IMG/VR virus record: IMGVR_UViG_3300027575_000004
Coordinates: 1-58,054 of that record
DNA length: 58,054 nucleotides
Source: a virus
Lineage: Duplodnaviria; Caudoviricetes
Reading direction: 5' to 3' (one strand)
Shown here one piece after another: positions 39,214 through 57,119 of this stretch (position 1 is its first letter; each line of letters starts with the position of its first letter). The notes beneath the pieces are model-generated. The model saw only the letters and a program-made list of their open reading frames with translations, did not search any database and was not told where the DNA came from. The translations under genes were made by a program, and so were the position numbers.

Positions 39214-40289
39214 CAGCATCCACTCCCAACGGTTGATGCGATTGTCACTGGCGTTGCGGAAGTGCCCGCGTATGCAATCAAATTGCAGCTAGTGCCCGGG
39301 CCAGCTACCCACTTCAGCACGGCATATCCGGCACCCGGAGCAGCGGCAGCATCGGTTTCTTTAATCTGTCCAAGGTCGCCAGATTGACCAGCCGCTATCG
39401 TCAAAGAACCAACAGTGACACGATTTACGAACCCGGCAGCTTGTGAGCCGCCCTTTAGAATTTCTGCCGTAACGAGAGAATTCTGTGTCGTCGAACCGGC
39501 GCTATTTGCGGTCGTCTGTAAGGCCAAATCGGACGAGGCGTTACCAGTTGAGGCTCCCGAAGCAATCGTCTGCGATGCGCCTGGGCAATTCGCAGTCGTG
39601 ATGCAGCCTTGCGCGCCGAGGGTTTGGTTGACGGCGACCGTCGTATCGGCTGCGCCAAGATGAAGGGTTGCTGTCGTAGGGGACGTAATCTGAGCCTGAT
39701 CTGCACTCCATCCGAAACGTGACGCCTCGAATGGCTGATACGAGGAATTTGTCGAATTCACAGATGAAAGAATATTACTCCCGTTTGGATACAGCCCGGC
39801 CAGATTTGAAAAAGCTTCACCTGTCCCTATAGTGAGCCGTCCGTCCGACCTGACGCTAAATACACTTGAATTATTGACCTCCAAATCCTCTAAAAGGCTG
39901 CTGATGCTGCTAGCGGTATTCGTGATGTTCACGAAGATCGGCGCATCAAATGTCATGCCGGAGGCGTTCCATGTCGCCGTGATGTTGATGGCGTCGATGT
40001 TGGTGGTGATCGTGCCGAGCGCGATGTTGTTCGTGCTGCTGTAATTGCTTGTTCCCTTCACGCACAAGGCATTCGAGCCTATTGTGCAGCCGCCGAGGGC
40101 GAGAGAGGTTGAAATCGCCTCGACGCCAGCACCATTGGTCGTGAAGCCAGAGTCGCCTCCAAACGCCCCTGAATTATTGTACTGAAGCTGCGTATTAGAG
40201 CCGCCGGGAAGGGCTGGGCCAGAATAATCAGCGTAGCTTGGCGACGCACACAGCAAAAACGCGGCCAATATACTTGTGCTTGGGCGCAT
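39213..40289 (-). CDS. secreted fibre-like protein (signal peptide, 6 mature Cys)
   Basis: MRPSTSILAAFLLCASPSYA|DY; PGGSNTQLQYNNSGAFGG fibre motif; S/T/G/N-rich. Confidence 0.75.
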   Translation of the reverse strand: MRPSTSILAAFLLCASPSYADYSGPALPGGSNTQLQYNNSGAFGGDSGFTTNGAGVEAISTSLALGGCTIGSNALCVKGTSNYSSTNNIALGTITTNIDAINITATWNASGMTFDAPIFVNITNTASSISSLLEDLEVNNSSVFSVRSDGRLTIGTGEAFSNLAGLYPNGSNILSSVNSTNSSYQPFEASRFGWSADQAQITSPTTATLHLGAADTTVAVNQTLGAQGCITTANCPGASQTIASGASTGNASSDLALQTTANSAGSTTQNSLVTAEILKGGSQAAGFVNRVTVGSLTIAAGQSGDLGQIKETDAAAAPGAGYAVLKWVAGPGTSCNLIAYAGTSATPVTIASTVGSGC

Positions 40290-40831
40290 CACTTCGCGCC
40301 TACAGTCGCAGGCGTCGAAGCGGCAGATGAGATCGCGCTGATCGCATCGGACGGAACGTAGTCCGCCTCCCATGAGCGGTGCCAGTAGGGGGGCAGGGTG
40401 ATTTCACCGGCCGGGCAGACACCTGCGGTCGGCGCAGTGGCCGTGCCGCCCACGTTCACGCATACGGTTGCGGTCGCACTATTGTTTAGTATGTCACAAA
40501 ACACCTTGCACGCGGCAGCGGCGATAACAGTCGATGCGCTGGTGCCGATGGTGACAGACGAATATGCGCCGGAGGAATTCGTAGGCAAAATTGTGGTCGA
40601 GCCCCCACCCCCGCCGCCACCTGTTGTTTTCAGATTACCGTTTTGATCGCATGATAGGGTTGCCTGCTGCCCCGCGCTCAATGTCGGGGACTGGTAAATA
40701 CACCCGGCCCCGGTAGACTGATTACCAGCCTGCCCGCCTATCGCAGACCCTTGAGAATCGGCAAAAGCAAAGTCGGATATGACCAGAAGTGCCGCGATGA
40801 TTACAAGACAGCGCGCAAGCAATAATTTCAT
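40289..40831 (-). CDS. secreted beta-sandwich virion-like protein (signal peptide, 6 mature Cys)
   Basis: AGGGGGAG RBS; MKLLLARCLVIIAALLVISDFAFA|DS; Gly linker then beta-rich domain. Confidence 0.75.
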   Translation of the reverse strand: MKLLLARCLVIIAALLVISDFAFADSQGSAIGGQAGNQSTGAGCIYQSPTLSAGQQATLSCDQNGNLKTTGGGGGGGSTTILPTNSSGAYSSVTIGTSASTVIAAAACKVFCDILNNSATATVCVNVGGTATAPTAGVCPAGEITLPPYWHRSWEADYVPSDAISAISSAASTPATVGAK

Positions 40832-40965
40832 GGAAACACTCCCCCTGAAACCGCCTTGCCGCGATTTGTGAAGATAGAATTGTCTCTCTCTCACTGTAGA
40901 GTAAGGTATGGGGGAAGGGAAGTGGCTTAGAAGTGGTTGAAGTGATTGTGTTATTTGCCTTAATG

Positions 40966-41292
40966 TCAGCGCCGCTTACCTTGGTTGCTATCGAAAACAA
41001 TTTTGCGGCGGTCAGGATAATCCTCGATGATCTCAATCCGAAATACCGAGCGCCGCACGATTGCCGATGGGGGAACTGCTTCATCAACGCGCATCTGCCA
41101 ATTTCCTTTGTGAACGGGGCGATGTCTGAGCATCACTTCGAAGACATGACAGCCACCAAACTCAATGGCGTCTTCTTGCCTGTCGGCGAACCACGAAGAA
41201 GCAGCAAATCCTTCGCGTGAAATTTTATCCGCGACTGCCGTGTCCTTTGTTCCATGATACCAGAGGCGCATGGATTCCGTATCTCCCGTCAT
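40966..41292 (-). CDS. small ADP-ribosyltransferase-fold protein
   Basis: WYHGT...I..EGF...WFA....A..FG..VFEV...VPPSAI pattern of PARP/Tpt1-like ARTs. Confidence 0.55.
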   Translation of the reverse strand: MTGDTESMRLWYHGTKDTAVADKISREGFAASSWFADRQEDAIEFGGCHVFEVMLRHRPVHKGNWQMRVDEAVPPSAIVRRSVFRIEIIEDYPDRRKIVFDSNQGKRR

Positions 41293-41474
41293 GGGTTCTC
41301 CTGTGGAACGCGAGCCTCTTTTTCGGCCCATTCGTAGCCGAAATTCCAAGTTCTCCAGTTCAAATCCATCGCACTTGTCGCGCGGTGATATGGGTTATCG
41401 CTCTTAGGAGCGCCACGCTTGAATGCAGCCTGCCCTTTGCCAAAAGCTTTGCTGTCGCCTTTGCGGCCGCTCAC
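41289..41474 (-). CDS. ribosome modulation factor (Rmf/CrpP)-like small protein
   Basis: G..AF..G.....NPY......W..W..GY pattern. Confidence 0.55.
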   Translation of the reverse strand: MSGRKGDSKAFGKGQAAFKRGAPKSDNPYHRATSAMDLNWRTWNFGYEWAEKEARVPQENP

Positions 41475-41749
41475 GATTCTTTCTCCTGTAGGGCGGTGTC
41501 GATAAATTCGGCTATTAAAAACTTGACTTGAATGTCTGACCCGTAAGTTACGTCATTGTTGAAATGACCTGCTAGCCGTTCCGCGATTTTGTCGGGAACC
41601 GGAAGCATGGCTGCGATAGCGGCGCGGGCATATTCCTCGAAAGTTCTCCGATTCGACAAATACATATCGGCCACGGTTTTAGCATTGTAGCCGCTGTAAA
41701 CAGACTTCGCGAAAATCGCCTTCGCTACCCGCTCGATGATGTCGGTCAT
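41471..41749 (-). CDS. conserved phage protein (ERVAKAI...ARAAIAAM)
   Basis: similar to 35594-35869. Confidence 0.6.
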   Translation of the reverse strand: MTDIIERVAKAIFAKSVYSGYNAKTVADMYLSNRRTFEEYARAAIAAMLPVPDKIAERLAGHFNNDVTYGSDIQVKFLIAEFIDTALQEKES

Positions 41750-41762
41750 GGGGGCGCGTACC

Positions 41763-41951
41763 TTATTGGTTTGGTTGAGGGGATGGTTTGGAGCGGCGGG
41801 ATTTGGTCGATTGCGCGAGCAAAAGACCGGCGTCGATCAGAAATGGGCCAAGCGATTTCTTGGCGGCATTAGCTGCGCCTTCAAGCGTGCGTTTTTCGAC
41901 CTTTGACATGCGAAGCTCGAAACGCTCGGTCCTGATTTTGAAGCGAGCCAT
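41763..41951 (-). CDS. ribbon-helix-helix protein, DUF1778/TacA-like
   Basis: RTERFELRMSKVEKRTLEGAA....SLGPFLIDA. Confidence 0.6.
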   Translation of the reverse strand: MARFKIRTERFELRMSKVEKRTLEGAANAAKKSLGPFLIDAGLLLAQSTKSRRSKPSPQPNQ

Positions 41952-41952
41952 C

Positions 41953-42618
41953 TCAGGCTTCCGTGAGGTCAAGCCACTGACAGCCTGGCGCTTTCATGTC
42001 GATCAGGATTTGAACTACCCCCTCGGCAAAAGCCGCGAGGGACTTGTCCCGAGCGACCGCGGCGGCGGCGTAGGCGGCGGCGGCGTAGGCGGCGGCGGCG
42101 TAGGCGGCGGCGGCGTAGGCGGCGGCGGCGTAGGCGGCGGCGGCGACGGCGGCGCGAGCCACTTCCCGCGCATCCAGCGCCGATTGTTTCGTGCCATCAG
42201 CCTCACAGACCTTCGCAGCGTCCAGAAGCGCAGCAGCGTGGTGCTTATACTTTTGGACAGACGCGGCGGCACGTAACGCTTGCGGAACGCTTGTGCGAAT
42301 CGCCAATTCTGCGACGCGCCGGGTAAACTCCTTGTCGTCGAGATGTCCCACGCTTCCGAGTTGGGCTACAGCCAACCTGCGAAGGCCCTTGGCGCGGGCT
42401 TCATTGGACGACCACCTCGAATCATTCAGCCGAATTTTGAGAGCCCTAAGAGCACGAGATACGCAATCAGGATCATCGCCGTGCGGCAAGCCAAGCGCAT
42501 AGCAGACTGCGGCCTCAACACACATTTTACCCGGCTCGGCAATACCGACACCCGAAACGAGCCCGGCGTCCACAACCGTCAAAACCTTCTTGGCGACTTC
42601 TGCCGTAATAGCGTGCAT
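41953..42618 (-). CDS. hypothetical protein with (AAAAY)5 tract
   Basis: AAGGGAG RBS; MCVEAAV...HGDDPDCV...IRLND. Confidence 0.7.
   Translation of the reverse strand: MHAITAEVAKKVLTVVDAGLVSGVGIAEPGKMCVEAAVCYALGLPHGDDPDCVSRALRALKIRLNDSRWSSNEARAKGLRRLAVAQLGSVGHLDDKEFTRRVAELAIRTSVPQALRAAASVQKYKHHAAALLDAAKVCEADGTKQSALDAREVARAAVAAAAYAAAAYAAAAYAAAAYAAAAYAAAAVARDKSLAAFAEGVVQILIDMKAPGCQWLDLTEA
42058..42144. repeat. 15-bp tandem repeat ((GCC)4 TAC on minus strand) x5
   Basis: GTA recurs at 42070, 42085, 42100, 42115, 42130. Confidence 0.9.
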
Positions 42619-42990
42619 TTCTGGCTCCCTTGCGATTTGATGGGGTTAAAAAGCACGAAATAATTACGGCGTCAAGTACGTAATCGCGCTTGACACGGTA
42701 CGTACACCTATGCTTTCCTCCCCTCACCCCGCCGATCATGGTGGGGGTTGGAGGCGAGGAAAATGAAACGTGGCGAAGCACAGCAAGTGGTCGCGAAACT
42801 TCTTGAAGATTTTTGCGCCGATGACGTGAAGTGCTGGCTCGTGACAGCTTGTCGTTTCAAGGCAGCCGAATATGAGCGCGAAGCTGGCTCAACCGCTTCC
42901 GAAGAAATCCGAGCCCTCAACGTGTTTGCGGAAAAACTCGAAGCTGTTGAGAACCAGGGCGTCTAACCCCTCCCCACTGATGAAGGAGAA

Positions 42991-43449
42991 ATGAAGATGA
43001 CTTTGGAAGAAGAAAAATCGCCGTTCGTGCCCGGAATCAAGGTCGCCATCTATCACTATGCCCGCTGGGATCACTCGCGCGAAATCAGGTCCAGCGTAGT
43101 TGAGAAAGTCTACAAGAACGGCCGCTTCACTCTTGTAGGTGATACTAACTACAACGGGCGCGCGAAGCAATACATCCCGCGCCTAGACCGCTTTTGGGGA
43201 GACGACAACCGCGCTCCGCGTTGGGAGGCAACCGAAACTGGCTACCGTAATTCCGGCACGATCCATCTTTGGGATGAACGGGTCGAGAAGGACATTCTGG
43301 CAGACCGAGCCATTCGCGCCCATCAGCGCCGCTGCAAGGCACTTGAAGACGCTTGGAACAAGTCGCACACCCAGTTGTCGCCGCTGCTTTCGCAGCAGGT
43401 CTGTGACCTGATGGTTTGCCACGCGATTTGCGGGACGGCTTATCCGTAA
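42991..43449 (+). CDS. hypothetical protein in plus-strand islet (~42750-43968)
   Basis: AAGGAG RBS. Confidence 0.65.
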   Translation: MKMTLEEEKSPFVPGIKVAIYHYARWDHSREIRSSVVEKVYKNGRFTLVGDTNYNGRAKQYIPRLDRFWGDDNRAPRWEATETGYRNSGTIHLWDERVEKDILADRAIRAHQRRCKALEDAWNKSHTQLSPLLSQQVCDLMVCHAICGTAYP

Positions 43450-43485
43450 TCCCTAACACTCCCCGCTGGGGAAGGAGGAAGTGAG

Positions 43486-43716
43486 ATGGACGTTTATTTC
43501 TCAGTGTTCAACGGACACAAAAATAATGCCGACAAACGGGCGCGCGAATTAATGTCTCGCGAGTGTCCCGATGCGCTCGCCGAAGTTGAAAAGATCGAAC
43601 GCGAAGAGGGCGGCATTATGGCCATCTTCCATTGTGCGCCATGCTTTGCAACTGCAACATATGCTGGGGCCGTGTTTGCATACGTGAATGAGCTACAGCC
43701 AGATACCACACCCTAA
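43486..43716 (+). CDS. hypothetical protein
   Basis: AGGAGG RBS. Confidence 0.55.
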   Translation: MDVYFSVFNGHKNNADKRARELMSRECPDALAEVEKIEREEGGIMAIFHCAPCFATATYAGAVFAYVNELQPDTTP

Positions 43717-43734
43717 CACACTTGGAGATGGAAG

Positions 43735-43968
43735 ATGGTGAAGATGAGCGCATCGGAAATCGTCTACTTTGCGCTCGTTTGGGCGGACGAGAATGTTGAA
43801 GCGATGATGACCGCTTGTCGCGAGTCCGACCCCGAACTTGTGAAAACCCTCGCCGACAACCTACGACAGATGCGAGCCTATCGTATCAAACGCTTTGGAA
43901 AGCCCGCCAACCCGATGGCAGATGCCAAACTTGTCGATGCCGTCACTTTCCGTTGGCCTCCGCGCTAA
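43735..43968 (+). CDS. hypothetical protein
   Basis: GGAG RBS. Confidence 0.55.
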   Translation: MVKMSASEIVYFALVWADENVEAMMTACRESDPELVKTLADNLRQMRAYRIKRFGKPANPMADAKLVDAVTFRWPPR

Positions 43969-43971
43969 TCT

Positions 43972-44490
43972 CTACCCCTCCCTGATCGTTACTTCGCCAA
44001 GGGCGCGGTGAATTTGGTTGATGAAGTTCTCGCGTACCCATTTGGCTTTGAAGGGGCTTTGGAATGTGATCGTGGCGGGAGGGCCTTCGCTGAACTCCGT
44101 ACCGCCGAACCACGCATCGAAGATCGCCGGATTCCCAAGCTGTTGAATGAGCTTACTCGCCTTCCCGTTCCATTGCAATCTTGTGGCGTCGTTAATTGCT
44201 GTGTTTTGTTGGGTTTGGGCTTCGACGACTGGTAGGAACCCCTCCCAGCGATTTTGATTGAGCCATGTCGAGAAATGAGCGCGCCGAATGTGCTGGTGAA
44301 CTGGCCGTCCCTGATTCTGCTTCACGAGATCGCGCAAGTAGGCTTGGATGCACAGAACGATTGTGTTGATGTCGGGCCGTTCCTTCTCGCTTTTGTTCCA
44401 CGCTTTGAAAGCTGTTTTCTTTGGGTCCGCTGGGGGTGCGCCGTAGGCTTTCCATGCGCGCGAAAAATCTATCGGATATTCGATCATCAT
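43972..44490 (-). CDS. replication protein: replisome-organiser/DnaT-like module fused to DnaA domain I-like C-terminus
   Basis: F..AW..Y...KKTAFKAW, HFSTWLNQNRWE; C-term IFDAWF...SPFKAKWVRENF..QI; TAATG coupling at 44490. Confidence 0.7.
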   Translation of the reverse strand: MMIEYPIDFSRAWKAYGAPPADPKKTAFKAWNKSEKERPDINTIVLCIQAYLRDLVKQNQGRPVHQHIRRAHFSTWLNQNRWEGFLPVVEAQTQQNTAINDATRLQWNGKASKLIQQLGNPAIFDAWFGGTEFSEGPPATITFQSPFKAKWVRENFINQIHRALGEVTIREG

Positions 44491-44735
44491 TAGCGCGTGC
44501 CCCATCCCGAAAAAGGCGCGTTCGGATGCGAGCGTGAAAATGCCTTTCCTTTGCCGTGGTTTTTCTTTTTCCAAACGGCTCCAGTACGACCAGTTTTCTC
44601 GCGGTGCGCTCGCACTGCAGAAATATTCTTGATACGAAGTTTTTCGCGGCGACGCTTTCGTTTCGCGGTTTGCTTGTTCATCGGATCGGCACCGTTGCCA
44701 TAAGAATCTTCTGGGTCAATTTTCTGTTTTCGCAT
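44490..44735 (-). CDS. highly basic small protein
   Basis: KRKRRREKLR, WKKKNHGKGK; stop overlaps replication gene start. Confidence 0.5.
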   Translation of the reverse strand: MRKQKIDPEDSYGNGADPMNKQTAKRKRRREKLRIKNISAVRAHREKTGRTGAVWKKKNHGKGKAFSRSHPNAPFSGWGTR

Positions 44736-44774
44736 GGGCGTTTGCAGATTTTCGAGGTCGTTATGCCTACTGAG

Positions 44775-45135
44775 TATTAATCTTCTAGGTGCTCATGCCC
44801 TTTGGTGAGTTCCGTTGTGATGGGCAGAAGACTCCTAGTCCCAAAATCGCTCGCGCGAAATTTGGTTGGAGTCCCTGCCCGGTGCCGACATGCCCACTGG
44901 AGCCGTCCGCCGCTTAGGGCAACCGCCTAGCCGCGTATGGCTGGCGGTCGGGGGTTTTTCTTCAGAGGTTTACGCCCCTCTTGCAGGCCGGTATGAGCCC
45001 CTTACAAGACTACCGTCAGCCCCTATGCCCGCGTCCCGACAGTGGGGCCTTCTCCATTCCGCGTGCTGTCAGGAACCCGTCAGAATGCCTCTGACGCCGA
45101 GATCAAGTCTCGGGCGCGGAAGCCGATGGGATTTA
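44775..45135 (-). ncRNA. candidate structured non-coding RNA (element B) upstream of replication genes; strand inferred
   Basis: hairpins 45097-45113, 45078-45096, 44822-44880; closing pair 45057-45063/45115-45121; crossing pair 45034-45042/45066-45074. Confidence 0.55.
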
Positions 45136-45141
45136 GAGGGG

Positions 45142-45260
45142 TTGACCTTGGAGGGTACTACGGCTAGATAAAAACCAGCGTCGCCTCTTGGCCTTCCGAT
45201 CTCTACCATCGGATGAGAGGCGAGCGGCGCGAACCGCAAAGCCTCGACGCAATTTATTCA
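45142..45260 (+). promoter_or_regulatory. sigma70-type promoter and short structured antisense transcript
   Basis: TTGACC-17-TAGATA (45142-45170); stem TCGCCTCT/AGAGGCGA with inner TCCGAT/ATCGGA. Confidence 0.5.
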
Positions 45261-45318
45261 CGATGCGCCCCAACGCTGTCAAGTGGCCCGATCAAAAATC
45301 GGGTCGCTTGGCCGCGCA

Positions 45319-45609
45319 TCACAGAATGACACTTTCCACGTATTCCTTTAGTCCATCCCAATCTTCTTCATTCCCGTAATGTTCGATTCGACCCATCTTG
45401 ACGCGGAGTTCGTCAAGTTCGTCGGAACAATCTTCGTCTATCCAATAATCTTCGGGGCCGAGAGAGGCCCAGCGAGCTTGCAGGGCGCGATCTACATCTT
45501 CCATGCCGATGGAACGCAGAAGCTCCGAAATCGCCTCCATGGCCTGCTCCATGCCGCCTGCGCCCATTCGGGTTAAGACTTGCACTTCCGTCATCGGAAC
45601 CATTGTCAC
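45319..45609 (-). CDS. acidic hypothetical protein
   Basis: ORF coupled to upstream gene. Confidence 0.55.
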   Translation of the reverse strand: MTMVPMTEVQVLTRMGAGGMEQAMEAISELLRSIGMEDVDRALQARWASLGPEDYWIDEDCSDELDELRVKMGRIEHYGNEEDWDGLKEYVESVIL

Positions 45610-45866
45610 TCAACCTTGTCGGAGCTTCGGGCCAGAACGAAAGTCTGAGAAGTAGAATTGAGGCCGTCGAATAGCGCGTCTTCGGTCGGACGAATCAATC
45701 CGTCCGCAAGCAACCGCTCGACAAGCTGCCTTCTGATCGCACGATTGTTTGAACTTAACCGATAGCCTCTCCATACTGCGGAAGGCGGCTCATTGATTTG
45801 CTCGTAGAAAATGTAAGCGCCCTTACCAAGGGCAGTCAGGATTGAACCTTGCGTGTCAGCTTTCAT
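45606..45866 (-). CDS. hypothetical protein
   Basis: AGGAGG RBS. Confidence 0.6.
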   Translation of the reverse strand: MKADTQGSILTALGKGAYIFYEQINEPPSAVWRGYRLSSNNRAIRRQLVERLLADGLIRPTEDALFDGLNSTSQTFVLARSSDKVE

Positions 45867-46034
45867 TTAAACCTCCTGATTTTCCAGTCAGTTTCTCGCG
45901 CGCTTGGATGTACCATTTCTCCCGATCGGCAAACGACATGAAGCCGAACCCATCGGGATATAGCGCGCCGTTACGCCTGTTGTGTTCGACGAATAATTTG
46001 CGAGCGAGAGATTTTTCGTCTTCGGTGTAGGATG

Positions 46035-46331
46035 TCACAACGGCAAATCCATTTGTCCGCGCGGCAGGACCAGTCTGTAATGATGCAAGCCGCGAACGAT
46101 ATACTTCCGCTCGACTGTGATTCCCAAGGCTCGGATATCCCGCAAGCGTGCGGAAATAGATGCTTCTGGATCGCCGGTTAAAAGCCGTATATCGGACAAG
46201 CCTCGCCATATGCCATCGGACATTGCGTTGTAAACACGGAGGGCTTGGGAATTAAGCCGCGCCGCATCGCGTGACGGCTCGAATGTAACGCCGTGGCGTG
46301 GGCCAGCGAGCGAGGATTCGAGGGTCGTCAT
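46035..46331 (-). CDS. winged-HTH DNA-binding protein
   Basis: DGIWRGLSDI...EASISARLRDIR...VER...HYRL. Confidence 0.7.
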   Translation of the reverse strand: MTTLESSLAGPRHGVTFEPSRDAARLNSQALRVYNAMSDGIWRGLSDIRLLTGDPEASISARLRDIRALGITVERKYIVRGLHHYRLVLPRGQMDLPL

Positions 46332-46849
46332 GGACGCAACGCCGCGAATGTAAATCCGCAATTCTGTAGAAACTCGCTCACACTCACTGCCGCATCAATT
46401 TCACGCGGCAATGATAATCGACGAACGGGCGCATGGGGAAGGGCGTCAATCAGCATCTTGCGCCGTAGTGCCCACGAGGCTTCTGTGCTACATTTTGTAG
46501 CCATCGCTTTGAATGAGTGGATTCCGGTCGAATGGTCCCGTCCACCAAACGCCAGCCCGATTTGCGGGTAGCTCGCTTTCGTATGCGTGCGGGCTACATA
46601 CATGGCGAGTTGCCGGTAATGAACCAAGGGGCGCTTTCTGTCGTGCCCCGTCAAATCCCTCACCGAGACGCGAAATAAGCACGCTGTAGCCACGATCACG
46701 TCACGGCAGGTAGGTTTGTGGTTTTCCATGACAAACCCCGCTGGCAAGTCGTAGGAAGGCAGAGAACGGCAGAACGCATCTAACGATTTTCCCAAGGCGA
46801 TTTCGTGAACCTGTGGGCCGGTATATTCACGCGCCATTGCGAAGCTCAT
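46328..46849 (-). CDS. stand-alone DnaA C-terminal (domain IV) HTH protein
   Basis: RKRPLVHYRQLAMYVARTHTKASYPQIGLAFGGRDHSTGIH matches the DnaA domain IV signature. Confidence 0.88.
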   Translation of the reverse strand: MSFAMAREYTGPQVHEIALGKSLDAFCRSLPSYDLPAGFVMENHKPTCRDVIVATACLFRVSVRDLTGHDRKRPLVHYRQLAMYVARTHTKASYPQIGLAFGGRDHSTGIHSFKAMATKCSTEASWALRRKMLIDALPHAPVRRLSLPREIDAAVSVSEFLQNCGFTFAALRP

Positions 46850-47042
46850 CGTAACCAATTCCTTTTCTCGAACTCATTCCAGAGCGACGCTATAGTGTCG
46901 GAAATAACCCGCTGGCGCTGCGATACCGTCAAAGCGTCAAGAGAAGAGCGATCATGGGGCCAATTTCCGACTTGCCACGGAAGCGGATCATAGGCGTCCG
47001 CGAGCGTCGCTTTCCGAATGTTGCGGCCTATGGCGAAGTCAC

Positions 47043-47372
47043 TCACTTGTGAATTTCCCTCAGTTCGATCTTCGGATAGAGCGCACGGAACAGATTGGCT
47101 TTGATGCGAAATACATCGGTCCTTACGCCTTTGGCGTCTTCCGCGACGCGCTTCCCATGCTCTAGATATTCAAAATCCGCCACGAAAGTACAAATAAGGC
47201 AATCATTCACGGATAGCGGGTGACGTGGCTGCAATTCGAGGTTTGAAATCTGACCGGCCTTCTGCAACAATTTCAGTTCGCCATATCGTTTCGCCTCTAG
47301 TTTGGAAGCAAAGCGATGGCCGTCAACCTCGGTCGGCGTGTTTCGGTATTTGTTGCGGCGAATTGAAATCAC
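47043..47372 (-). CDS. DUF1064-family endonuclease
   Basis: NKY.N...VDGHRFASKLEAKRY, LELQP, FVADFEY, EDAKG. Confidence 0.88.
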   Translation of the reverse strand: MISIRRNKYRNTPTEVDGHRFASKLEAKRYGELKLLQKAGQISNLELQPRHPLSVNDCLICTFVADFEYLEHGKRVAEDAKGVRTDVFRIKANLFRALYPKIELREIHK

Positions 47373-47562
47373 CGCGCCCCCACCTTCCTAAGCGATGCAA
47401 TAACAGGCTCTGGCTTTTGAACACTCGCCCTTACAAACGGCCATGCTCCGGCAGATACAGGGCTTGGATTGGGATAGCGCATGATACAGATGATATCGAC
47501 AAATCGTTCGTCGGTTAGGGTTTCGTTGAGTTCGGACATTTTGCGGCGGTTTTCGTAGGGGA

Positions 47563-47742
47563 TCATGCCGATACCCGTTCCGACAACTGTTCTAGGAGTC
47601 TGGAAAGCGGCCCCGGAATTTTGCGTCCCGGCTTTTCAAGGCGGCAGATCGTACTCTGATGCACGCCCAATTCCTCGGCAAGCCGCTCTTGGCTCCAATC
47701 CAATTGAGCCCGAAGCTTCGTGATATTTATTTTCTTGGGCAT
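47563..47742 (-). CDS. Cro/XRE-type HTH regulator
   Basis: LRAQLDWSQERLAEELGVHQSTICRLE. Confidence 0.85.
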   Translation of the reverse strand: MPKKINITKLRAQLDWSQERLAEELGVHQSTICRLEKPGRKIPGPLSRLLEQLSERVSA

Positions 47743-47969
47743 TATGTATGCCAAGTTGTGCGCGGAGGAAGGCGAGGCCCATCGTAGTCCGATTGTTCAA
47801 TCCCACGAGATTCGTGGCGCGGCTTCATGGGGACAACGCGATCTTGTGGTGTGCGCGCCGTCGCGCCGCAGGACAAGCAGAATGGGGTAGGCGGGAAAAT
47901 TCCGTACCAAACAGTAGGGACGACAACCCGTCCGCCGCACTCCGAACACGTTCCAATGACGCGATGCAT
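47742..47969 (-). CDS. zinc-ribbon-like small protein
   Basis: CSECGG...CLSCG; GGAG RBS; TAATG coupling. Confidence 0.6.
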   Translation of the reverse strand: MHRVIGTCSECGGRVVVPTVWYGIFPPTPFCLSCGATARTPQDRVVPMKPRHESRGIEQSDYDGPRLPPRTTWHT

Positions 47970-48016
47970 GAGATATTCTCCGAATGACGCCCCATGAATG
48001 CATACTTTCACATTCC

Positions 48017-48065
48017 ATGCAAGCCGCATTATTCGCTTGACATGCAAAATGCATAGCCCTACCTT
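48017..48065 (+). promoter_or_regulatory. early promoter at the divergence point with operator-like palindromes
   Basis: TTGACA-17-TACCTT (48037-48065); ATGC-N5-GCAT at 48017-48029 and 48042-48054. Confidence 0.65.
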
Positions 48066-48070
48066 CCTCT

Positions 48071-48111
48071 CAAGACACAAGACACAAGACACAAGACACA
48101 AGACACAAGAC
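48071..48111 (+). repeat. heptamer tandem repeat (CAAGACA) x5 plus CAAGAC
   Basis: read directly; lies between promoter and GAGGA RBS. Confidence 0.95.
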
Positions 48112-48617
48112 GCTAGAGGAAGCAAAACATGGACATGTTAGTCAGCGAACACTTTCCGCTTCGTCCATACGAGACATTTACCGTCAAGGACGGCGAAGGC
48201 CGCGTGGTCGAAACTTGGAGTTACACAGGCTCGACAAAGCAGCATTGTCCGAAGGGCAAGGTTCGCGCTTCCTTCCATGTTCGCGGCTATCGCGGCTATC
48301 GCGGCGCTCAGGCGATCTAAGCCCATGACACACCGCATCCAAATCGAATCCCCTGACGATACAGGACGCTGGCTCAATACGGGAGACAGCTTTGAAGTGG
48401 ATTGCGACCCGGAGGATTTGCCTCATCATGCGAGGCTGGCGCTTTCCGAAGCCATTTGTTTCGAGGGCTTTAGAGGCGGTCCATTACGTGCCGTCATCAT
48501 CCCCAGCGAAGAAGGCTATCCCATGCAAACCATTATGGGAACGGGGCCAGAAGCCGATCCGCGCTTGAACGAATATATCGCACGGGAAGAGGAACGACAA
48601 TCGGAAAGGGCGATGTC

Positions 48618-48887
48618 ATGAGCGAGTGGCTAGACATTTCTACAGCGCCGAAGGATGGGACTGCGATTTGGCTCTTTTATGAAGGCGAAATCGTGATCGG
48701 ATACTTTCAACCTCCTGAGCCTTGGGACGAAAAAGGGGCGTGGTTTGCAAAAGCTTCGTTTCGGCGGCGCTCGCATGAGCGCAATCAGCCAGACGACATT
48801 TTCGGCACCTACACTTTCGGCGCAACGCCAACCCACTGGCAACCCCTCCCCGCTCCTCCATCCCAAGCCCGTGGAGATGGGGAATGA
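48618..48887 (+). CDS. DUF551-family protein
   Basis: W.DISTAPKDGT...PTHWQPLPAPP. Confidence 0.8.
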   Translation: MSEWLDISTAPKDGTAIWLFYEGEIVIGYFQPPEPWDEKGAWFAKASFRRRSHERNQPDDIFGTYTFGATPTHWQPLPAPPSQARGDGE

Positions 48888-49186
48888 GCGAGACGAAGCA
48901 CACGCCGACACCTTGGACCGTCAAGCATGGCGAACACGAAAGCGAACTGTTTGCCGAAAAGTACCGTGGTGACATCGCCGCATTCAACCAATACACGGGA
49001 GCGCTTGAGGCCGATGAGTGCCGGGCTAATGCGGCGCGCAACGGCTTCACGGCAGAGTCGCCGCCAACAGAAATTCCCGTTCGCCTCGCCGACGTAATGG
49101 ACTGCCTTCTCCCGGCGGCCGATCCGAACAAGCACTTGTGCAGCATCGCCGACGTGCTGAATCCGAAAGCGGAGAAGGAAGGGTGA
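48884..49186 (+). CDS. hypothetical phage protein
   Basis: KHTPTPW...ANA motif common in phage early proteins. Confidence 0.6.
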   Translation: MSETKHTPTPWTVKHGEHESELFAEKYRGDIAAFNQYTGALEADECRANAARNGFTAESPPTEIPVRLADVMDCLLPAADPNKHLCSIADVLNPKAEKEG

Positions 49187-49187
49187 G

Positions 49188-49550
49188 ATGAAAAAGACCG
49201 CAGAGCAATCCGAATTCAACAGCAGGGATTTGGTTGCGCGCCTTCGCTTTTGGTCCGAGACAATGGCCCAAGGCGATTGTGGAGCAGCCGCCGACGAAAT
49301 CTCCCGCCTCCGTGCGCGCGTGGCGAAGCTGGAGGGGGCGCTGAGGCCATTCGTGAGATTAGCCGAACGAGAACTTGTAGATGGTGGTCCGTTGTTTGGG
49401 GAATATCTAAAGCTTCGCCGCGTCCAAATTATTTGGGAAGGCGAGCACGATATTACGCCTGCTGCCCTCCGCGCCGCCTCCGCCACGCTGGCAGGCGAGA
49501 CAGAACAGACCGAGCTTGAGCGGGTGGGACGGGGAGAGGCTTTGAAATGA
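49188..49550 (+). CDS. hypothetical phage protein
   Basis: DLVARLR...AADEISRLR motif. Confidence 0.6.
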   Translation: MKKTAEQSEFNSRDLVARLRFWSETMAQGDCGAAADEISRLRARVAKLEGALRPFVRLAERELVDGGPLFGEYLKLRRVQIIWEGEHDITPAALRAASATLAGETEQTELERVGRGEALK

Positions 49551-49907
49551 CAACGCAAGAGGCTTACGAAGCTGGCTATTATGAGGCAAAAAACAGCTGC
49601 CTGCGATTGCTCGCGAAATGGTTTTTCATGAAGAACAAGGACGCGAGATCGTGCCGTGATGAAATGTTAGCGCTTTCGCCCATGAGGCTCAAGCCATGAC
49701 CGCGAAAATCTATCTGCTATCCAATGCCATCACGGAATCGGAAATCCGCCGTCGTGCGAAACCTCGATTCATTTCGGATCGCATTATGAGCGGTGCAGGA
49801 TATGCTCTAGCTGCTGCTATTGTAGCTCTTGCAATGGGAGGGATGGTGTTTGATTCCGCTGTGTTGTCAGAGTGGCTTTGGAATGCGTTTGCGGAGGCGA
49901 TTCGGTA

Positions 49908-50483
49908 ATGTCCGCGACCTCAGAATATCTCAATCAGAAACCGCGCACATTGGCGCAAGCGACGGGTGACAGAATGACGGCAACAGCCGAGCGGAATCTT
50001 GCTCGTGAGACTGCGGCGGCGAACGCTCTGCGTCAAGCCCTTATGGCCCTAACGGACGATCCGGAAGCCGTTCGCGATACTATCGAAGGCGAGACAACGC
50101 TACGCGAAGATATCGTATCTGTGATGGCCTCTATCCGCGAGGATGAGGTTTTCGAGCTTGGCCTAGATGCTATGATCGACAAACTCGCCGAGCGCCAACA
50201 GCGTATTCAGGAGCGTATCGAGCGGAAACGCACGGCTATCTTGCAGGCAATGGTAATCGGGGAAATTCCTTCCCTAGAATTGGCGGACGCGACTTTGTTC
50301 GTTCGCAAGGTTCCACGCAAGGTGGAAATCTCGGACGAGGCTTTGATACCGTCCGAATATTGGAAGCAGCCGGACCCGACGCTGGACAAGTCGGCGCTCG
50401 CATCGGCGCTCAAGGAAGGTAAAGACGTTCCGGGAGCAACGCTCGATAACGGCGGAATCGGTTTGACAATCAGGAGAGCATGA
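49908..50483 (+). CDS. siphovirus Gp157-family protein
   Basis: DTIEGET, coiled coil, ISDEALIPSEYW...LDK..L..ALK.G..VPGA.L. Confidence 0.85.
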   Translation: MSATSEYLNQKPRTLAQATGDRMTATAERNLARETAAANALRQALMALTDDPEAVRDTIEGETTLREDIVSVMASIREDEVFELGLDAMIDKLAERQQRIQERIERKRTAILQAMVIGEIPSLELADATLFVRKVPRKVEISDEALIPSEYWKQPDPTLDKSALASALKEGKDVPGATLDNGGIGLTIRRA

Positions 50484-50743
50484 TGGGCGAATACGCGGAA
50501 ATGATACTTGACGGAACCATGTGTTCCGGCTGCGGCGAATTCCTACACGACGGCAACGATGGTCCCGGCTATCCCGGCCTGTGTTCTTTATGTGCCAGAG
50601 AAGCGACGAACTTGGAAAAGCGAGAGCGTCCTACGTCGGACAAAAAGACGATGCAGTGTCCAGATTGTACGCGGCGCTTTGCAACACACGAATCATATTT
50701 GCAGCACTACCGCGACAGACACGAAAAGAAAACGGGGAAATAA
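50480..50743 (+). CDS. C2H2 zinc-finger protein
   Basis: CPDCTRRFATHESYLQHYRDRH plus N-terminal CxxC pairs. Confidence 0.7.
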   Translation: MMGEYAEMILDGTMCSGCGEFLHDGNDGPGYPGLCSLCAREATNLEKRERPTSDKKTMQCPDCTRRFATHESYLQHYRDRHEKKTGK

Positions 50744-50744
50744 G

Positions 50745-51689
50745 ATGGGCGACGTAACAACATTACACCAAGGCTCTTTGACCTATACGGGCAAGCAGCT
50801 AGACCTTATTCGGCGTACGGTTGCGAGCGATTGCAACGGGACCGAATTCGACCTGTATCTGGAAGTCGCGCGCCGCGTCGGGCTCGATCCTTTCCGCAAG
50901 CAGATTTACGCGGTGATTTATTCCAAAGACAACCCCGACAAGCGAAAAATGTCGATCATTACCGGCATTGACGGCTATCGGGCCATTGCCGCGCGGAACA
51001 AGGATTACCGTCCCGACGAAAACGCGCCCACATTCGAGTATGACGCGAATCTCAAAAGCGAATTGAACCCGGCCGAGATTGTAAGCGCCACGGTTCGGTG
51101 CTGGAAGCTCGCGCCCGATGGACAATGGCACCCCGTCGCTGGAATTGCCTTCTGGGATGAATTCGTGCCGCTCACAGAACAGTGGGCTTTCGACCGGGAA
51201 CAGAACCGGCGTGCGCCTACTGGCGTGTATGAACTTTCCAAGAATTCCAATTGGTACAAAATGCCACGCGTGATGATCGCAAAGGCGGCAGAGGCTATTG
51301 CGCTTCGTAAGGGCTGGCCCGAAGACCTTTCGGGCATTTATACCGAAGACGAAATGGCCCGCACTACGGCGCAGGATATGACGGCCAGCGAGGCTATTGA
51401 CGCTTATACCAAAGACCAGCGGCTTGCCCTCACGAATGCCAAGGACTGCATCACGGTCCAATGGGAGCCTAGCGCGGCCCTAGAGGCCGTCCCGGTCGGG
51501 CAGTTCGCAGACCGTGCCGCCGCTTTCGTTCGGGCCTGTACGACCATCCCTGACCTTGTGGGGTGGGCAGATACGAACGCCGCATCCCTGCGTCAATTTT
51601 GGGCGCATTCCAAGAGCGATGCACTGGAACTGAAAAAGCTGATCGAAGGCCGAACGGCAGAGATCGCAGAGGCTAACAAGGTCGCATGA
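50745..51689 (+). CDS. bet: Red-beta/RecT-family single-strand annealing recombinase
   Basis: GLDPFRKQIY, IDGYRAIA, W.KMPRVMIAKAAEAIALRKGWPE.LSGIY..DEM. Confidence 0.9.
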   Translation: MGDVTTLHQGSLTYTGKQLDLIRRTVASDCNGTEFDLYLEVARRVGLDPFRKQIYAVIYSKDNPDKRKMSIITGIDGYRAIAARNKDYRPDENAPTFEYDANLKSELNPAEIVSATVRCWKLAPDGQWHPVAGIAFWDEFVPLTEQWAFDREQNRRAPTGVYELSKNSNWYKMPRVMIAKAAEAIALRKGWPEDLSGIYTEDEMARTTAQDMTASEAIDAYTKDQRLALTNAKDCITVQWEPSAALEAVPVGQFADRAAAFVRACTTIPDLVGWADTNAASLRQFWAHSKSDALELKKLIEGRTAEIAEANKVA

Positions 51690-52123
51690 GCGACGAACTG
51701 GAACGCCAGCTTTACGTCAAATCGCTATCTGGGTTCATTCCTGATAGCGAGGCAGCGCGGACGTTCCATCGTCGGGTCAAAGTCGGCAGCACAATCGAAC
51801 TAAAAGGCTCAGCATCTCGCAACATTCAGCACCACAAAAAATTCTTCGCCATGCTCAAAATCATCTTCGAAAATCAGGAGCATTATGCGAGCATGGACGT
51901 GCTGTTAGGCGTGTGCAAATTGGCGGTCGGGCACTGCGACGTAATCGAAACGCCGCGTGGAACCGTGAGGCTTCCGAAGTCTATCAGCTTTTCGGCGTTG
52001 AGTCAGAGTCAATTCGAGGATTTTTATGACCGCGCGGTGCAGTGGGCGACTACCGATGTAATCGCAGGGCTTTCCAAGCAACATCTGGACGAGGCTGTTG
52101 AACAAGAGCTTCTAAGATTCTAA
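51686..52123 (+). CDS. DUF1367 (NinB-like) protein
   Basis: RN..HHKKFFAML, PKSISF..LSQ..FEDFY. Confidence 0.8.
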   Translation: MSDELERQLYVKSLSGFIPDSEAARTFHRRVKVGSTIELKGSASRNIQHHKKFFAMLKIIFENQEHYASMDVLLGVCKLAVGHCDVIETPRGTVRLPKSISFSALSQSQFEDFYDRAVQWATTDVIAGLSKQHLDEAVEQELLRF

Positions 52124-52386
52124 CCACCCACTCACACCATATAGCGGGGAGATAGAGAATGGTATCGAAATGCTTTTGCGATAACTGCGGTTCCGAGGGC
52201 GCTGGTCGCGTCACTCTGTCCGTCGCTCGCAGCATCCCGTTGCAAATGATCGGGGATGGCAAGGATATGGACGCCGACCTATGCCAGAAATGCTTTGACA
52301 AATTCTTGGCAGCCGTCCGCGAAATTAGGATCATAGACAGCCGCGCCCGCATTATGGCGGCGCAACAATTCAAGGAAGGCTAACCC

Positions 52387-52758
52387 ATGCCCATCCGTAT
52401 CACAATCGAGCGTATCTTGCGCGATGAAGACGACGCAATCGGACAATCAATCCGCGAGTGGAAGATTGAGGTCGAAGATGCTTCAATCATGCTTCGTGGG
52501 CGCGAGAAGGCCGGATTTGTCCATTTGCGCGCCAATGATATTCTTGTCCTCATCGCCGATCTAGAGCGCGCAAAAGCGGTTGCGGGGACTTTCGATGAAA
52601 GCGAGCCTGCCCCTCCCAAGCCCGCTACAAGACGGGGAAGAAAGAAGAAGTTGGGAACGGCAATAGCCTCGGAAGCGCGCGAATCAGATACACCGCTCAA
52701 GCTTCCCGACCCCGACAAAATACCCTCTCACATGCTGCGTATACCGGAGAAGGGGTGA
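52387..52758 (+). CDS. hypothetical protein
   Basis: ORF in early arm. Confidence 0.55.
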   Translation: MPIRITIERILRDEDDAIGQSIREWKIEVEDASIMLRGREKAGFVHLRANDILVLIADLERAKAVAGTFDESEPAPPKPATRRGRKKKLGTAIASEARESDTPLKLPDPDKIPSHMLRIPEKG

Positions 52759-52762
52759 GGGG

Positions 52763-52984
52763 ATGGCTCGCACAGCCCAGTGTCCAAACTGTTCGCGGAA
52801 GTTCGGCGATAATAACGCCGTCTATCTGCATATAAAGGCGAAGCATGGCGGCAAAGGTAAGGCTGCGTTTGCGCCCGAGGAAGATGAATCATTCGCGGAT
52901 CGTGCAATTCGAGCCAGCCTCGATCATGCGATGGGCATTCCCAACGATGATTACGATTGGCTTGTAGAGCCTTGGGAAGCGTGA
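52763..52984 (+). CDS. C2H2 zinc-finger protein
   Basis: CPNCSRKFGDNNAVYLHIKAKH. Confidence 0.7.
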   Translation: MARTAQCPNCSRKFGDNNAVYLHIKAKHGGKGKAAFAPEEDESFADRAIRASLDHAMGIPNDDYDWLVEPWEA

Positions 52985-52985
52985 C

Positions 52986-53414: not shown

Positions 53415-53447
53415 ACCCATGACCACCCGCCACAGAAACAGGTGAGA

Positions 53448-53807: not shown

Positions 53808-53817
53808 GCGGCCCTTC

Positions 53818-54095: not shown

Positions 54096-54103
54096 TTTCG
54101 GCC

Positions 54104-54784: not shown

Positions 54785-54813
54785 TTGACATAGTTCGCAT
54801 TGCCGCAGATAAT
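54785..54813 (+). promoter_or_regulatory. promoter predicted to give a leaderless mRNA
   Basis: TTGACA-17-GATAAT, 6 nt before ATG 54820; no SD. Confidence 0.7.
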
Positions 54814-54819
54814 TCCGCC

Positions 54820-57108: not shown

Positions 57109-57119
57109 GGAGTTTTGCC

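What the first reader, a model, noticed from the sequence alone, without database searches (positions are those of the whole stretch)
43972..45260. Structured ~360-nt non-coding element plus Arg-rich peptide in front of a replication protein lacking its DNA-binding HTH
Seen: 44775-45135 has no credible ORF but is densely paired. Hairpins CCGAGA/TCTCGG and CGTCAGA/TCTGACG sit inside a TTCCGCG/CGCGGAA stem, a 9-bp helix (45034-45042 with 45066-45074) crosses that stem as a pseudoknot, and a long hairpin spans 44822-44880. Downstream come a very basic 81-aa ORF and a coupled 172-aa protein that starts directly at the replisome-organiser C-terminal module. No N-terminal wHTH and no iterons were visible. 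A plus-strand promoter (45142-45170) drives a short hairpin RNA antisense to the upstream leader. Established: lambdoid initiators usually carry an HTH with internal iterons, and ColE1 uses a primer RNA controlled by an antisense RNA. Inference: an RNA (or folded ssDNA) may specify or prime the origin.
Basis: partly seen in the sequence, partly recalled or inferred. Interest (0 to 1): 0.75.

Follow-up and report, generated by a model that had tools for sequence, protein, structure and literature searches.

The report
Orphan hairpin-rich gap before phage replication gene
A 583-base stretch without genes sits in front of a soil phage's replication gene and holds several strong hairpins, but it has no relatives in any collection searched, so it most likely tunes how much replication protein is made and cannot be shown to be an RNA-made origin.

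Summary
The window is a complete 58-kb lambdoid-type soil phage.

Measured against the phage's own genome, foldability is high but not unique:
- The 361-nt block ranks 5 of 357 on the minus strand.
- Two local hairpins are extreme: 44822-44880 and 45262-45319.
- The 'pseudoknot' block is not beyond chance.
- The plus-strand promoter falls below the scan's threshold.

There is no Rfam match. No relative was found in any collection, so covariation cannot be tested, and no RNA run exists.

The 81-aa basic ORF is what chance gives (1163 of 2000 shuffles) and has no Shine-Dalgarno.

The HTH-less Rep is a common stand-alone form: 66 of the 150 best family representatives, query included. It is a helical domain plus a DnaA domain I fold. 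A DnaA domain IV protein lies 1.8 kb upstream, so DNA recognition need not come from RNA.

Best reading (0.4): a structured leader or spacer of the early operon that controls Rep expression. An origin, RNA-primed or not, stays possible (0.2).

The parts
44736..45318 (.). 583-nt non-coding gap between orf96 (45319-45609, minus) and the 81-aa ORF
   Evidence: No Pfam hit in 10 open frames. No similarity to the Rep family's N-terminal domains. G+C up to 0.627.
45262..45319 (.). Long imperfect hairpin (arms 45274-45292 and 45298-45316 plus outer GATGCGC/GCGCATC) that overlaps the stop codon of orf96
   Evidence: Inverted repeat I1. Fold -20.2 kcal/mol. The 67-nt window 45257-45323 is the most stable on the plus strand genome-wide (z -4.26).
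45166..45250 (-). Branched hairpin (outer stem 45246-45250 with 45178-45182) followed by UGGUUUUUAU on the minus strand; terminator-like but not canonical. On the plus strand the same stem is followed by AAUUUAUU.
   Evidence: minus -38.4, z -1.63; plus -34.3, z -2.57. Not picked up by the terminator scan, whose loop limit is 3-8.
45142..45170 (+).
   Evidence: Read: 8 of 12 matches, no T at the last -10 position. 0 promoter-like sites in 43500-46000.
45252..45282 (-). Perfect TTGACA with only poor -10 candidates (GAATAA at 17, AATAAA at 18, ATAAAT at 19 nt); it faces the plus-strand site across the hairpin
   Evidence: Below the scan's threshold. Convergent TTGAC pairs 100-180 nt apart occur 8 times in the genome.
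45029..45121 (-).
   Evidence: z -1.26 minus, -2.02 plus: not significant. Repeat D7 gives the two alternative CGCG partners.
44921..44950 (.). 12-bp hairpin; on the plus strand it is followed by CGGGGGTTTTTCTTC
   Evidence: 56-nt context: minus -21.2, z -3.88; plus -20.5, z -1.05.
44822..44880 (.). 59-nt imperfect palindrome or long hairpin, the strongest single element
   Evidence: z -6.63 minus, -4.71 plus. Rank 2 (minus) and 8 (plus) among the non-overlapping top windows of 7249 67-nt windows.
44896..44906 (-). 11-mer perfectly complementary to 44575-44585, which holds the GGAG in front of the alternative TTG start (44574) of Rep
   Evidence: Inverted repeat I4. The helix is present in both the MFE and the centroid of the 696-nt fold. 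Only weakly unusual: -33.7 kcal/mol, rank 3 of 83 gene starts, matched or beaten by 3.9% of 1852 random windows.
44490..44735 (-). 81-aa very basic ORF; coding status open
   Evidence: Called by gene finders in 3 contigs. No Shine-Dalgarno. Codon score 0.009 per codon. No family. Atlas model pLDDT 0.43. Expected by chance. The RNA around its start is among the least structured of the genome (200-nt window 44601-44800, rank 1098 of 1158).
43972..44490 (-). Rep, 172 aa (or 200 aa from TTG 44574): helical N-domain plus a DnaA domain I fold, no HTH
   Evidence: PHROG 270 (3.6e-10) and Pfam DnaA_N (1e-6). AlphaFold pLDDT 95.5. Foldseek best hits are DnaA domain I (4tps, 2e0g; E 0.05-0.12, C-terminal half only).
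46328..46858 (-). Stand-alone DnaA domain IV (HTH) protein in the same operon; candidate DNA-binding partner
   Evidence: Pfam Bac_DnaA_C 3e-21. SYPQIG...GRDHST signature invariant in 8 of 8 aligned relatives.

Best explanation
The gap is the untranslated spacer and leader of the minus-strand early operon (cro-like gene, DUF1064 resolvase, DnaA-domain-IV protein, three small ORFs, gap, Rep). It acts as RNA in cis to set how much Rep is made.

Inferred order of events:
1. Transcripts leaving orf96 meet two long hairpins, the second followed by a U run, which stop or pause part of them.
2. Read-through RNA carries a G+C-rich hairpin block whose strongest member (44822-44880) is the kind of long irregular duplex that serves as a processing or stability site.
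3. An unusually unstructured A-rich tail then lets ribosomes load without a Shine-Dalgarno.
4. Rep is translated in one of two ways. Either it is coupled to the upstream 81-codon frame (TAATG overlap), or it starts at the TTG at 44574, whose GGAG is masked by an 11-nt long-range pairing that ribosomes in the upstream frame would melt.

Rep itself is a stand-alone adaptor with a DnaA domain I fold. It probably recruits the host helicase or DnaA, while DNA recognition is supplied in trans.

Shown: the anatomy, the non-coding state, the hairpins, the domain make-up. Inferred: every functional step.
For: - Position inside a co-directional operon, directly upstream of Rep.
- No coding signal.
- G+C in the top 1.2% of windows.
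- The 361-nt block ranks 5 of 357 on the minus strand.
- Two of the genome's most stable local hairpins lie in the gap.
- A hairpin plus U5 lies downstream of orf96 on the minus strand.
- The least-structured RNA lies just around the ATG at 44735.
- TAATG stop-start overlap.
- The phage's genes otherwise use AGGAG-type sites, and the TTG at 44574 has GGAG 4 nt upstream.
- The anti-SD helix appears in both the MFE and the centroid fold.
- Precedent: rep genes coupled to a leader ORF that overlaps their start, under RNA control (R1, IncI1, IncI2; passages of PMC8053102 read).
Against: - No transcript data and no relatives, so no covariation.
- The whole 696-nt leader is not more structured than shuffles (z -1.09).
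- No strand preference, so the hairpins could equally be DNA palindromes.
- The anti-SD pairing is only at the 4% level.
- The terminator is not canonical.
- No clear second promoter was found.
- The leader ORF is 81 codons, far longer than the 19-aa leader peptide of the IncI2 plasmid in PMC8053102, and may be a chance frame.
Confidence: 0.4

Rival explanations
1. The gap is, or holds, the phage origin of replication. This includes the first reader's version, in which a structured transcript or folded single strand primes or marks the start site, as transcripts do at ColE1, at T4 R-loop origins and in the non-coding ori of Lactococcus c2-type phages.
For: - It is the largest gene-free stretch of the replication module, between the DnaA-IV protein and Rep.
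- Strong palindromes work equally on both strands.
- A G+C-rich block is followed by a strand-asymmetric A-rich stretch (A 0.33-0.38, T 0.15-0.17 on the minus strand).
- No phage helicase or primase was found among the proteins scanned, so host machinery must be recruited.
- Precedent: a non-coding, transcript-dependent phage ori (PE1-T of c2; passages of PMC7150918 read).
Against: - No iterons or enriched words beyond GGTTTTT three times.
- DnaA-box-like words occur at chance frequency in the window (106 found, 107 expected) and do not cluster here.
- The region is G+C-rich where origins are usually A+T-rich.
- The promoters needed for a primer and an antisense RNA are below threshold.
- Cumulative skews follow gene direction only.
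- A DNA-binding protein is available, so an RNA specifier is not required.
Confidence: 0.2
2. The gap encodes one or more free-standing small RNAs. One candidate is an ~80-nt plus-strand RNA (about 45177-45260) from the TTGACC site, antisense to the early transcript. In position it is comparable to lambda oop RNA, which lies just upstream of the replication genes (recalled, not tested). Another candidate is a larger trans-acting RNA from 44790-45165.
For: - Face-to-face TTGAC(A/C) sites bracket a stable branched hairpin. Each strand has a T-rich tail after the stem (plus-strand fold z -2.57).
- On the plus strand, hairpin 44921-44950 is followed by T5.
- G+C enrichment is typical of structured RNA genes.
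Against: - Both promoters fail the scan.
- Convergent TTGAC pairs are common: 8 in 58 kb.
- No Rfam family at E<=10.
- No second copy or relative was found.
Confidence: 0.15
3. The gap has no dedicated function. It is a mosaic joint or decayed remnant between exchanged modules, and its hairpins are chance or leftover terminators.
For: - The closest phage by terminase (72% identity, L023) has an unrelated early region, so modules are exchanged.
- The replication genes are orphans.
- Overall foldability lies within the genome's own tail, and the leader as a whole has z -1.09.
- A stand-alone Rep homologue works without any leader (L105).
Against: - No trace of a decayed gene.
- Two of the genome's most extreme local hairpins fall within 583 nt.
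- G+C is in the top 1.2% of windows.
- Phage genomes rarely keep 0.6 kb of useless DNA (general knowledge).
Confidence: 0.2

Closest known systems
Leader-peptide-coupled, antisense-RNA-controlled rep genes of IncFII (R1 tap-repA/CopA), IncI1/IncB (repY-repZ, Inc RNA, pseudoknot) and IncI2 (repR-repA) plasmids (PMC8053102, passages read)
   Same: An upstream ORF whose end overlaps the start codon of the replication gene, a structured leader, and a candidate short antisense RNA with stem-loops in the leader.
   Different: The leader ORF is 81 codons, not 19 as in the IncI2 plasmid of PMC8053102, and may be a chance frame. The candidate antisense RNA lies about 440 nt upstream of that ORF and its promoter is below threshold. 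This is a phage, not a plasmid, and Rep belongs to an unrelated family.
Non-coding, transcript-dependent origin of Lactococcus Ceduovirus (c2-type) phages, PE1-T (PMC7150918, passages read)
   Same: A gene-free, ribosome-site-free stretch of a few hundred bases in a phage early region, proposed to act through a structured non-coding transcript.
   Different: The c2 ori sits between two mapped early promoters at the early/late divergence and works without phage proteins. Here there are no credible promoters, the gap lies inside an operon beside dedicated replication proteins, and there is no sequence likeness.
ColE1 RNA II primer / RNA I antisense
   Same: A structured RNA of some hundred bases with a short antisense partner is conceivable.
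   Different: ColE1 needs no plasmid initiator, whereas this phage encodes two replication proteins. No promoter, RNase H site or G-rich/C-rich hybrid element could be identified, and there is no Rfam match.
Lambda early-right region: tR1 terminator, oop antisense RNA just upstream of O and P (recalled, not tested)
   Same: The same place in a lambdoid operon: after the cro-side genes and before the replication genes, with a terminator-like hairpin and a possible ~80-nt antisense RNA.
   Different: Lambda's origin lies inside O, with iterons and an HTH-bearing O protein. Here Rep has no HTH, there are no iterons, and the antisense RNA would not overlap a coding gene.
Phage replication proteins with DUF1376, HTH_36 or Phage_rep_org_N heads and a DnaA_N-like tail
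   Same: Rep172 aligns end to end with the C-terminal 160-170 residues of these proteins. DnaA_N was found in 33 of the 84 longer members.
   Different: Rep172 lacks the head domain, as do 66 of the 150 best representatives, query included.

Membership tests
Any Rfam 15 RNA family | Match to a covariance model at the gathering score, or at least a suggestive E-value | tested here: not met
   The only hit in the whole window is a tRNA at 8974-9064. In 44400-45700 at E<=10 there were three chance hits with E 5-9.
Iteron-type phage/plasmid origin | Three or more direct repeats of 15-22 bp at regular spacing | tested here: not met
   Only two-copy, 65-92% identical short repeats were found. The word-enrichment scan gave only GGTTTTT three times.
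DnaA-box origin | Cluster of TTATCCACA-like boxes (consensus recalled) | tested here: not met
   106 matches with up to 2 mismatches against 107 expected in the window. Only two 2-mismatch sites (44567, 45254) lie in 44490-45320. The phage protein's own specificity is unknown.
ColE1-type RNA-primed origin | Promoter for a ~500-nt primer RNA and an opposed promoter for a ~100-nt antisense RNA with terminator | tested here: inconclusive
   Only sub-threshold sites were found. The host's promoter rules are unknown, although one 11-of-12 sigma-70-like site exists elsewhere in the phage.
ColE1-type RNA-primed origin | Persistent RNA-DNA hybrid and RNase H cut at the start site | not testable with these tools
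   Needs biochemistry or replication-start mapping.
R1/IncI-type leader-peptide-coupled rep control | Leader ORF ending at or over the rep start codon | tested here: met
   TAATG overlap at 44490-44494.
R1/IncI-type leader-peptide-coupled rep control | The leader ORF is translated and is needed for Rep synthesis | tested here: inconclusive
   No Shine-Dalgarno. Codon score near 0. The frame is preferred by 8.4 and 16.8 bits over the other two frames, but an ORF of this length is expected by chance.
R1/IncI-type leader-peptide-coupled rep control | Constitutive antisense RNA complementary to the leader near the leader ORF's start | tested here: not met
   No plus-strand promoter-like site in 43500-46000. 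The only candidate RNA lies about 440 nt upstream of the ATG at 44735.
Conserved structured RNA (any new class) | Compensatory base changes across relatives | not testable with these tools
   No relative in the phage database, IMG/VR, metagenome contigs, genome contigs or 401 genomes. A covariance model over 1,149,338 bases of related loci found only itself. The two DNA runs are identical.
Replisome-organiser/DUF1376-type phage initiators | N-terminal (winged) HTH DNA-binding head | tested here: not met
   Pfam and PHROG matches cover only the tail. The AlphaFold model is all tail. No decayed head was found upstream.
Replisome-organiser/DUF1376-type phage initiators | C-terminal helical module plus DnaA domain I-like fold | tested here: met
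   PHROG 270 at 3.6e-10 and DnaA_N at 1e-6. 224 relatives at E<=1e-3. Foldseek best hits are DnaA domain I (E only 0.05-0.12).

The most novel reading that the evidence does not exclude
The hairpin block is an RNA (or extruded DNA) landmark of a protein-poor origin. The disordered Arg/Lys-rich 81-aa product binds the hairpins, as arginine-rich peptides of lambdoid N proteins bind boxB (recalled analogy). It is made in a fixed ratio with the HTH-less Rep through TAATG coupling. Rep's DnaA domain I fold then brings in the host helicase. On this reading a nucleic-acid structure, not an iteron array, specifies where replication starts.
Probability: 0.07. Interest if true: 0.85.

Novelty: new member of a known kind. 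Interest (0 to 1): 0.3.

Why it matters
If the gap is a cis-acting leader, it is one more case of RNA-level control of a replication gene, in a phage lineage with no cultured relatives. That is of modest interest.

The more useful by-product concerns the proteins. A widespread replication module, a helical domain plus a DnaA domain I fold, occurs about as often alone as fused to interchangeable HTH heads. In this phage it is accompanied by a separate DnaA domain IV protein. This suggests initiators assembled from separate DnaA-like pieces. How such HTH-less modules find their start site is an open and testable question.

If the gap proved to be a structure-specified origin, that would be a real surprise. 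Nothing here shows it.

Tried and rejected
- **Decayed N-terminal head or other pseudogene in the gap.** tblastn of all 151 held family proteins against 44400-45700 gave only noise (best E 0.003 in a tiny search space). Pfam on 10 open frames gave 0 hits. hhalign of the 81-aa product against the long forms gave probability 0.3%.
- **Relatives for covariation.**
  - Rep in genome contigs: 0 confirmed of 102 candidates.
  - Rep in IMG/VR: 6 loci at 33-38% identity, or 68% over 22 residues, ordinary 220-266-aa proteins where inspected.
  - Rep in metagenome contigs: 10 remote loci.
  - Word-indexed protein search: only itself.
  - tblastn of Rep against phages: none.
  - DnaA-IV protein: 0 in IMG/VR and 0 in genome contigs.
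  - Homologues P0005 and P0153 in IMG/VR: 0. P0003 in genome contigs: 1 remote locus.
  - orf96: 1 remote locus.
  - Profile A1 in 400 and 401 genomes: 2 and 11 matches, of which 5 are long frames of 475-567 aa matched only over the DnaA_N part and probably chromosomal DnaA.
  - Terminase relatives: 80 loci, but their early regions are unrelated.
  - Hairpin pattern in IMG/VR: 0.
  - Covariance model R1 was built from the window sequence entered twice, so it is a single-sequence model of low reach. It found only itself.
  - blastn against 401 genomes: 6 short matches with E 0.003-0.007 per genome. Two lie over the tandem hairpins and look like common GCCGAGATCAAGG coding words. I judged them chance.
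- **RNA evidence.** No RNA holder is listed. The 2 DNA runs look like one data set and show no variants.
- **Complex prediction of the DnaA-IV protein with Rep.** No verdict.
- **Atlas look-up of the 81-aa product.** No named relative.
- **Origin by skew.** Skews follow transcription only.
- **Strand of the structure.** The energy difference between strands is ordinary.
- **Symmetric TTGAC pair as a designed convergent promoter pair.** Such pairs are common.
Full report
**What the window is.** The window is a whole virus record of 58,054 bases, rated complete. It was recovered from soil metagenome DNA. Two DNA runs hold it, they are identical to each other over the stretch laid, and no RNA run is listed.

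It has a lambdoid layout. A cro-like HTH gene (47563-47754) heads a minus-strand early operon. That operon runs through a DUF1064/resolvase gene, a DnaA domain IV protein (46328-46858), three small ORFs, the gap in question, an 81-aa ORF and Rep. Terminase, portal, head and tail genes follow further down. A divergent arm carries Gam-like, RecT-like and NinB-like genes. No helicase or primase turned up among the 30 proteins I scanned.

The gap 44736-45318 (583 nt) is non-coding as far as can be told:
- The only long frame, 101 aa on the plus strand, has a negative codon score (-0.118).
- Ten open frames gave no Pfam match at E<=1.
- No family protein aligns to it.

The gap is longer than any gap left by a greedy tiling with ORFs of 60 aa or more (largest other gap 359 nt). 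That tiling itself fills this stretch with two plus-strand frames that I judge spurious. G+C reaches 0.627, against a genome mean of 0.549 (sd 0.033). Only 1.2% of 300-nt windows are as high.

**Is it more structured than chance?** Partly. Natural sequence often beats shuffles, so I also used the phage itself as background, regressing energy on G+C:
- The 361-nt block ranks 5 of 357 on the minus strand and 31 of 357 on the plus strand.
- The best 200-nt windows rank 31-37 of 1158 on the minus strand, and 5 and 13 on the plus strand.
- The whole 696-nt leader has z -1.09.
- The energy difference between strands ranks 90 of 357, so nothing says which strand, or whether RNA rather than DNA, is meant.

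Piece by piece:
- The three-hairpin block that carries the proposed pseudoknot is not significant (z -1.26 and -2.02). A nested fold with the second CGCGG copy accounts for it.
- The hairpin 44818-44884 is outstanding (z -6.6 and -4.7).
- The hairpin 44921-44950 is strong on the minus strand (z -3.9).

Genome-wide, 44817-44883 is the second most stable 67-nt window on the minus strand, and 45257-45323 is the most stable on the plus strand. So the gap is truly rich in long hairpins, but the elaborate fold is not established.

**Promoters and terminators.** The scan found no promoter-like site in 43500-46000. A perfect TTGACA on the minus strand (45282-45277) faces it across the branched hairpin 45178-45250, but its -10 candidates are poor. 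Convergent TTGAC pairs at this distance occur 8 times in the genome.

On the minus strand the branched hairpin is followed by UGGUUUUUAU. On the plus strand it is followed by AAUUUAUU. This looks like a two-way terminator whose A+T-rich flanks mimic -10 boxes. It could also be a pair of short complementary RNAs. I cannot decide between these.

**The 81-aa basic ORF.**
- Gene finders called it in three contigs.
- It has no Shine-Dalgarno, although this phage's genes commonly have AGGAG-type sites.
- Its codon score is 0.009 per codon, though its frame is preferred over the other two by 8 and 17 bits.
- It has no relative or family, and its Atlas model is disordered (pLDDT 0.43).
- The minus strand here is T-poor. 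An ORF of 81 codons or more therefore arises in 1163 of 2000 shuffles of the 829-nt leader, in 652 of 2000 with ATG only, and in 128 of 2000 shuffles of the A-rich 331 nt alone.

Its reality is open. The TAATG overlap with Rep's ATG is there.

There is an alternative Rep start at TTG 44574 (200 aa), which has GGAG 4 nt upstream. That site is perfectly complementary over 11 nt to 44896-44906 in the hairpin block. The helix appears in both the MFE and the centroid fold. However, a duplex this good is matched or beaten by 3.9% of 1852 random windows and ranks 3 of 83 gene starts. It is a lead, no more.

**Rep.** The 172-aa protein matches the C-terminal part of phage replication initiators (PHROG 270, 3.6e-10) and Pfam DnaA_N (1e-6). 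A full HMMER pass over 1.84 billion representatives found 224 relatives at E<=1e-3.

Of the 150 best, 66 (query included) are 210 aa or shorter and align end to end; 84 are longer. Among those 84, Pfam finds:
- DnaA_N in 33
- DUF1376 in 20
- HTH_36 in 13
- HTH_5 in 2
- Phage_rep_org_N in 2
- Bac_DnaA_C in none

The module is therefore a cassette that occurs alone about as often as behind interchangeable HTH heads. Some short entries may be fragments or miscalled starts.

The AlphaFold model is confident (pLDDT 95.5). Its C-terminal half is most like DnaA domain I (4tps, 2e0g, 2jmp, 2wp0; Foldseek E only 0.05-2.7). Its N-terminal helices match nothing solved. DnaA domain I is the part through which oriC-bound DnaA binds DnaB helicase stably (abstract of PMC6127211, seen in the listing).

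One stand-alone homologue in a bacterial genome (L105) follows a DUF3164 gene, which I recall as typical of Mu-like phages. It overlaps that gene's end with no leader at all. So neither the missing HTH nor a structured leader is a family trait.

**A DNA-binding candidate.** The 176-aa protein at 46328-46858 carries DnaA domain IV (3e-21). The SYPQIG...GRDHST motif is invariant in its 8 aligned relatives. Similar stand-alone domain IV proteins occur in 24 phage records, with partial coverage only. This removes the need for an RNA to specify the origin, although I could not show that it binds Rep (complex prediction gave no verdict; see tried and rejected). E. coli-type DnaA boxes are at chance frequency and not clustered in the gap.

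**No relatives.** Every route to comparative data failed; the list is under tried and rejected. The nearest phage by terminase (72% identity, L023) has a different early region. A covariance model of 44815-44955 found only itself in 1,149,338 bases of related loci. Rfam has no match. Covariation, the decisive computational test, therefore cannot be run with what is held here.

**Reading.** I put 0.4 on a cis-acting RNA spacer and leader that gates and tunes Rep expression. The closest known logic is the leader-ORF-coupled, RNA-controlled rep genes of R1, IncI1 and IncI2 plasmids (PMC8053102, passages).

I put 0.2 on an origin. I put 0.15 on free-standing small RNA(s) and 0.2 on no dedicated function.

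Two of its premises are weakened: no DNA-binding module on hand, and a significant pseudoknotted fold.

**Limits.** The host is unknown and there are no transcripts. The analogies to lambda oop/tR1, N-boxB, T4 R-loops, RNase III sites and ColE1 are recalled, not tested.

Noticed in passing
window 46328-46858 (minus): Stand-alone DnaA domain IV protein with the DNA-contact signature intact. Together with Rep's DnaA domain I fold, the phage carries the two end domains of DnaA as separate genes and lacks the AAA+ core.
   Followed up: partly
window 8972-9064 (minus): tRNA-Cys(GCA) of 93 nt. Infernal skips 19 nt after the anticodon stem, so it has an unusually long insertion or an intron-like insert.
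   Followed up: no
window 41953-42618 (minus): 221-aa protein with six tandem AAAAY repeats (the opposite strand reads GGGGV repeats). Local G+C is up to 0.745. No family match.
   Followed up: no
window 42748-43968 (plus): Four small plus-strand genes with good Shine-Dalgarno sites converge head-on on the 3' end of Rep. A promoter-like site lies at 42637-42664 and a terminator-like hairpin at 43993-44012 inside Rep's end. Antisense transcription into Rep is possible.
   Followed up: no
window 25777-25843: The most stable 67-nt local structure of the genome on the minus strand (z -5.0). It lies in the 124-nt gap between structural genes 25521-25751 and 25876-26943.
   Followed up: no
window 54785-54813 (plus): The only near-consensus sigma-70-type site in 40000-58054 (TTGACA-17-GATAAT, 11 of 12). 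It suggests the host reads E. coli-like promoters.
   Followed up: no
L023 (IMG/VR contig of 59,747 bases): The terminase is 72% identical to the window's, but none of the 22 early-region proteins tested is shared except a weak cro-like match. This is module exchange between otherwise related phages.
   Followed up: partly
L105 1486-2666 (minus): A stand-alone Rep-module homologue (164 aa, DnaA_N) directly follows a DUF3164 gene in a bacterial genome. This suggests the module also serves phages that replicate by transposition.
   Followed up: partly
window 5281-5600 and 8251-8500: Further windows among the most stable folds of the genome on the minus strand (z -2.8 to -3.2 at 200 nt). The second lies in a 359-nt gene-free gap near the tRNA.
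   Followed up: no
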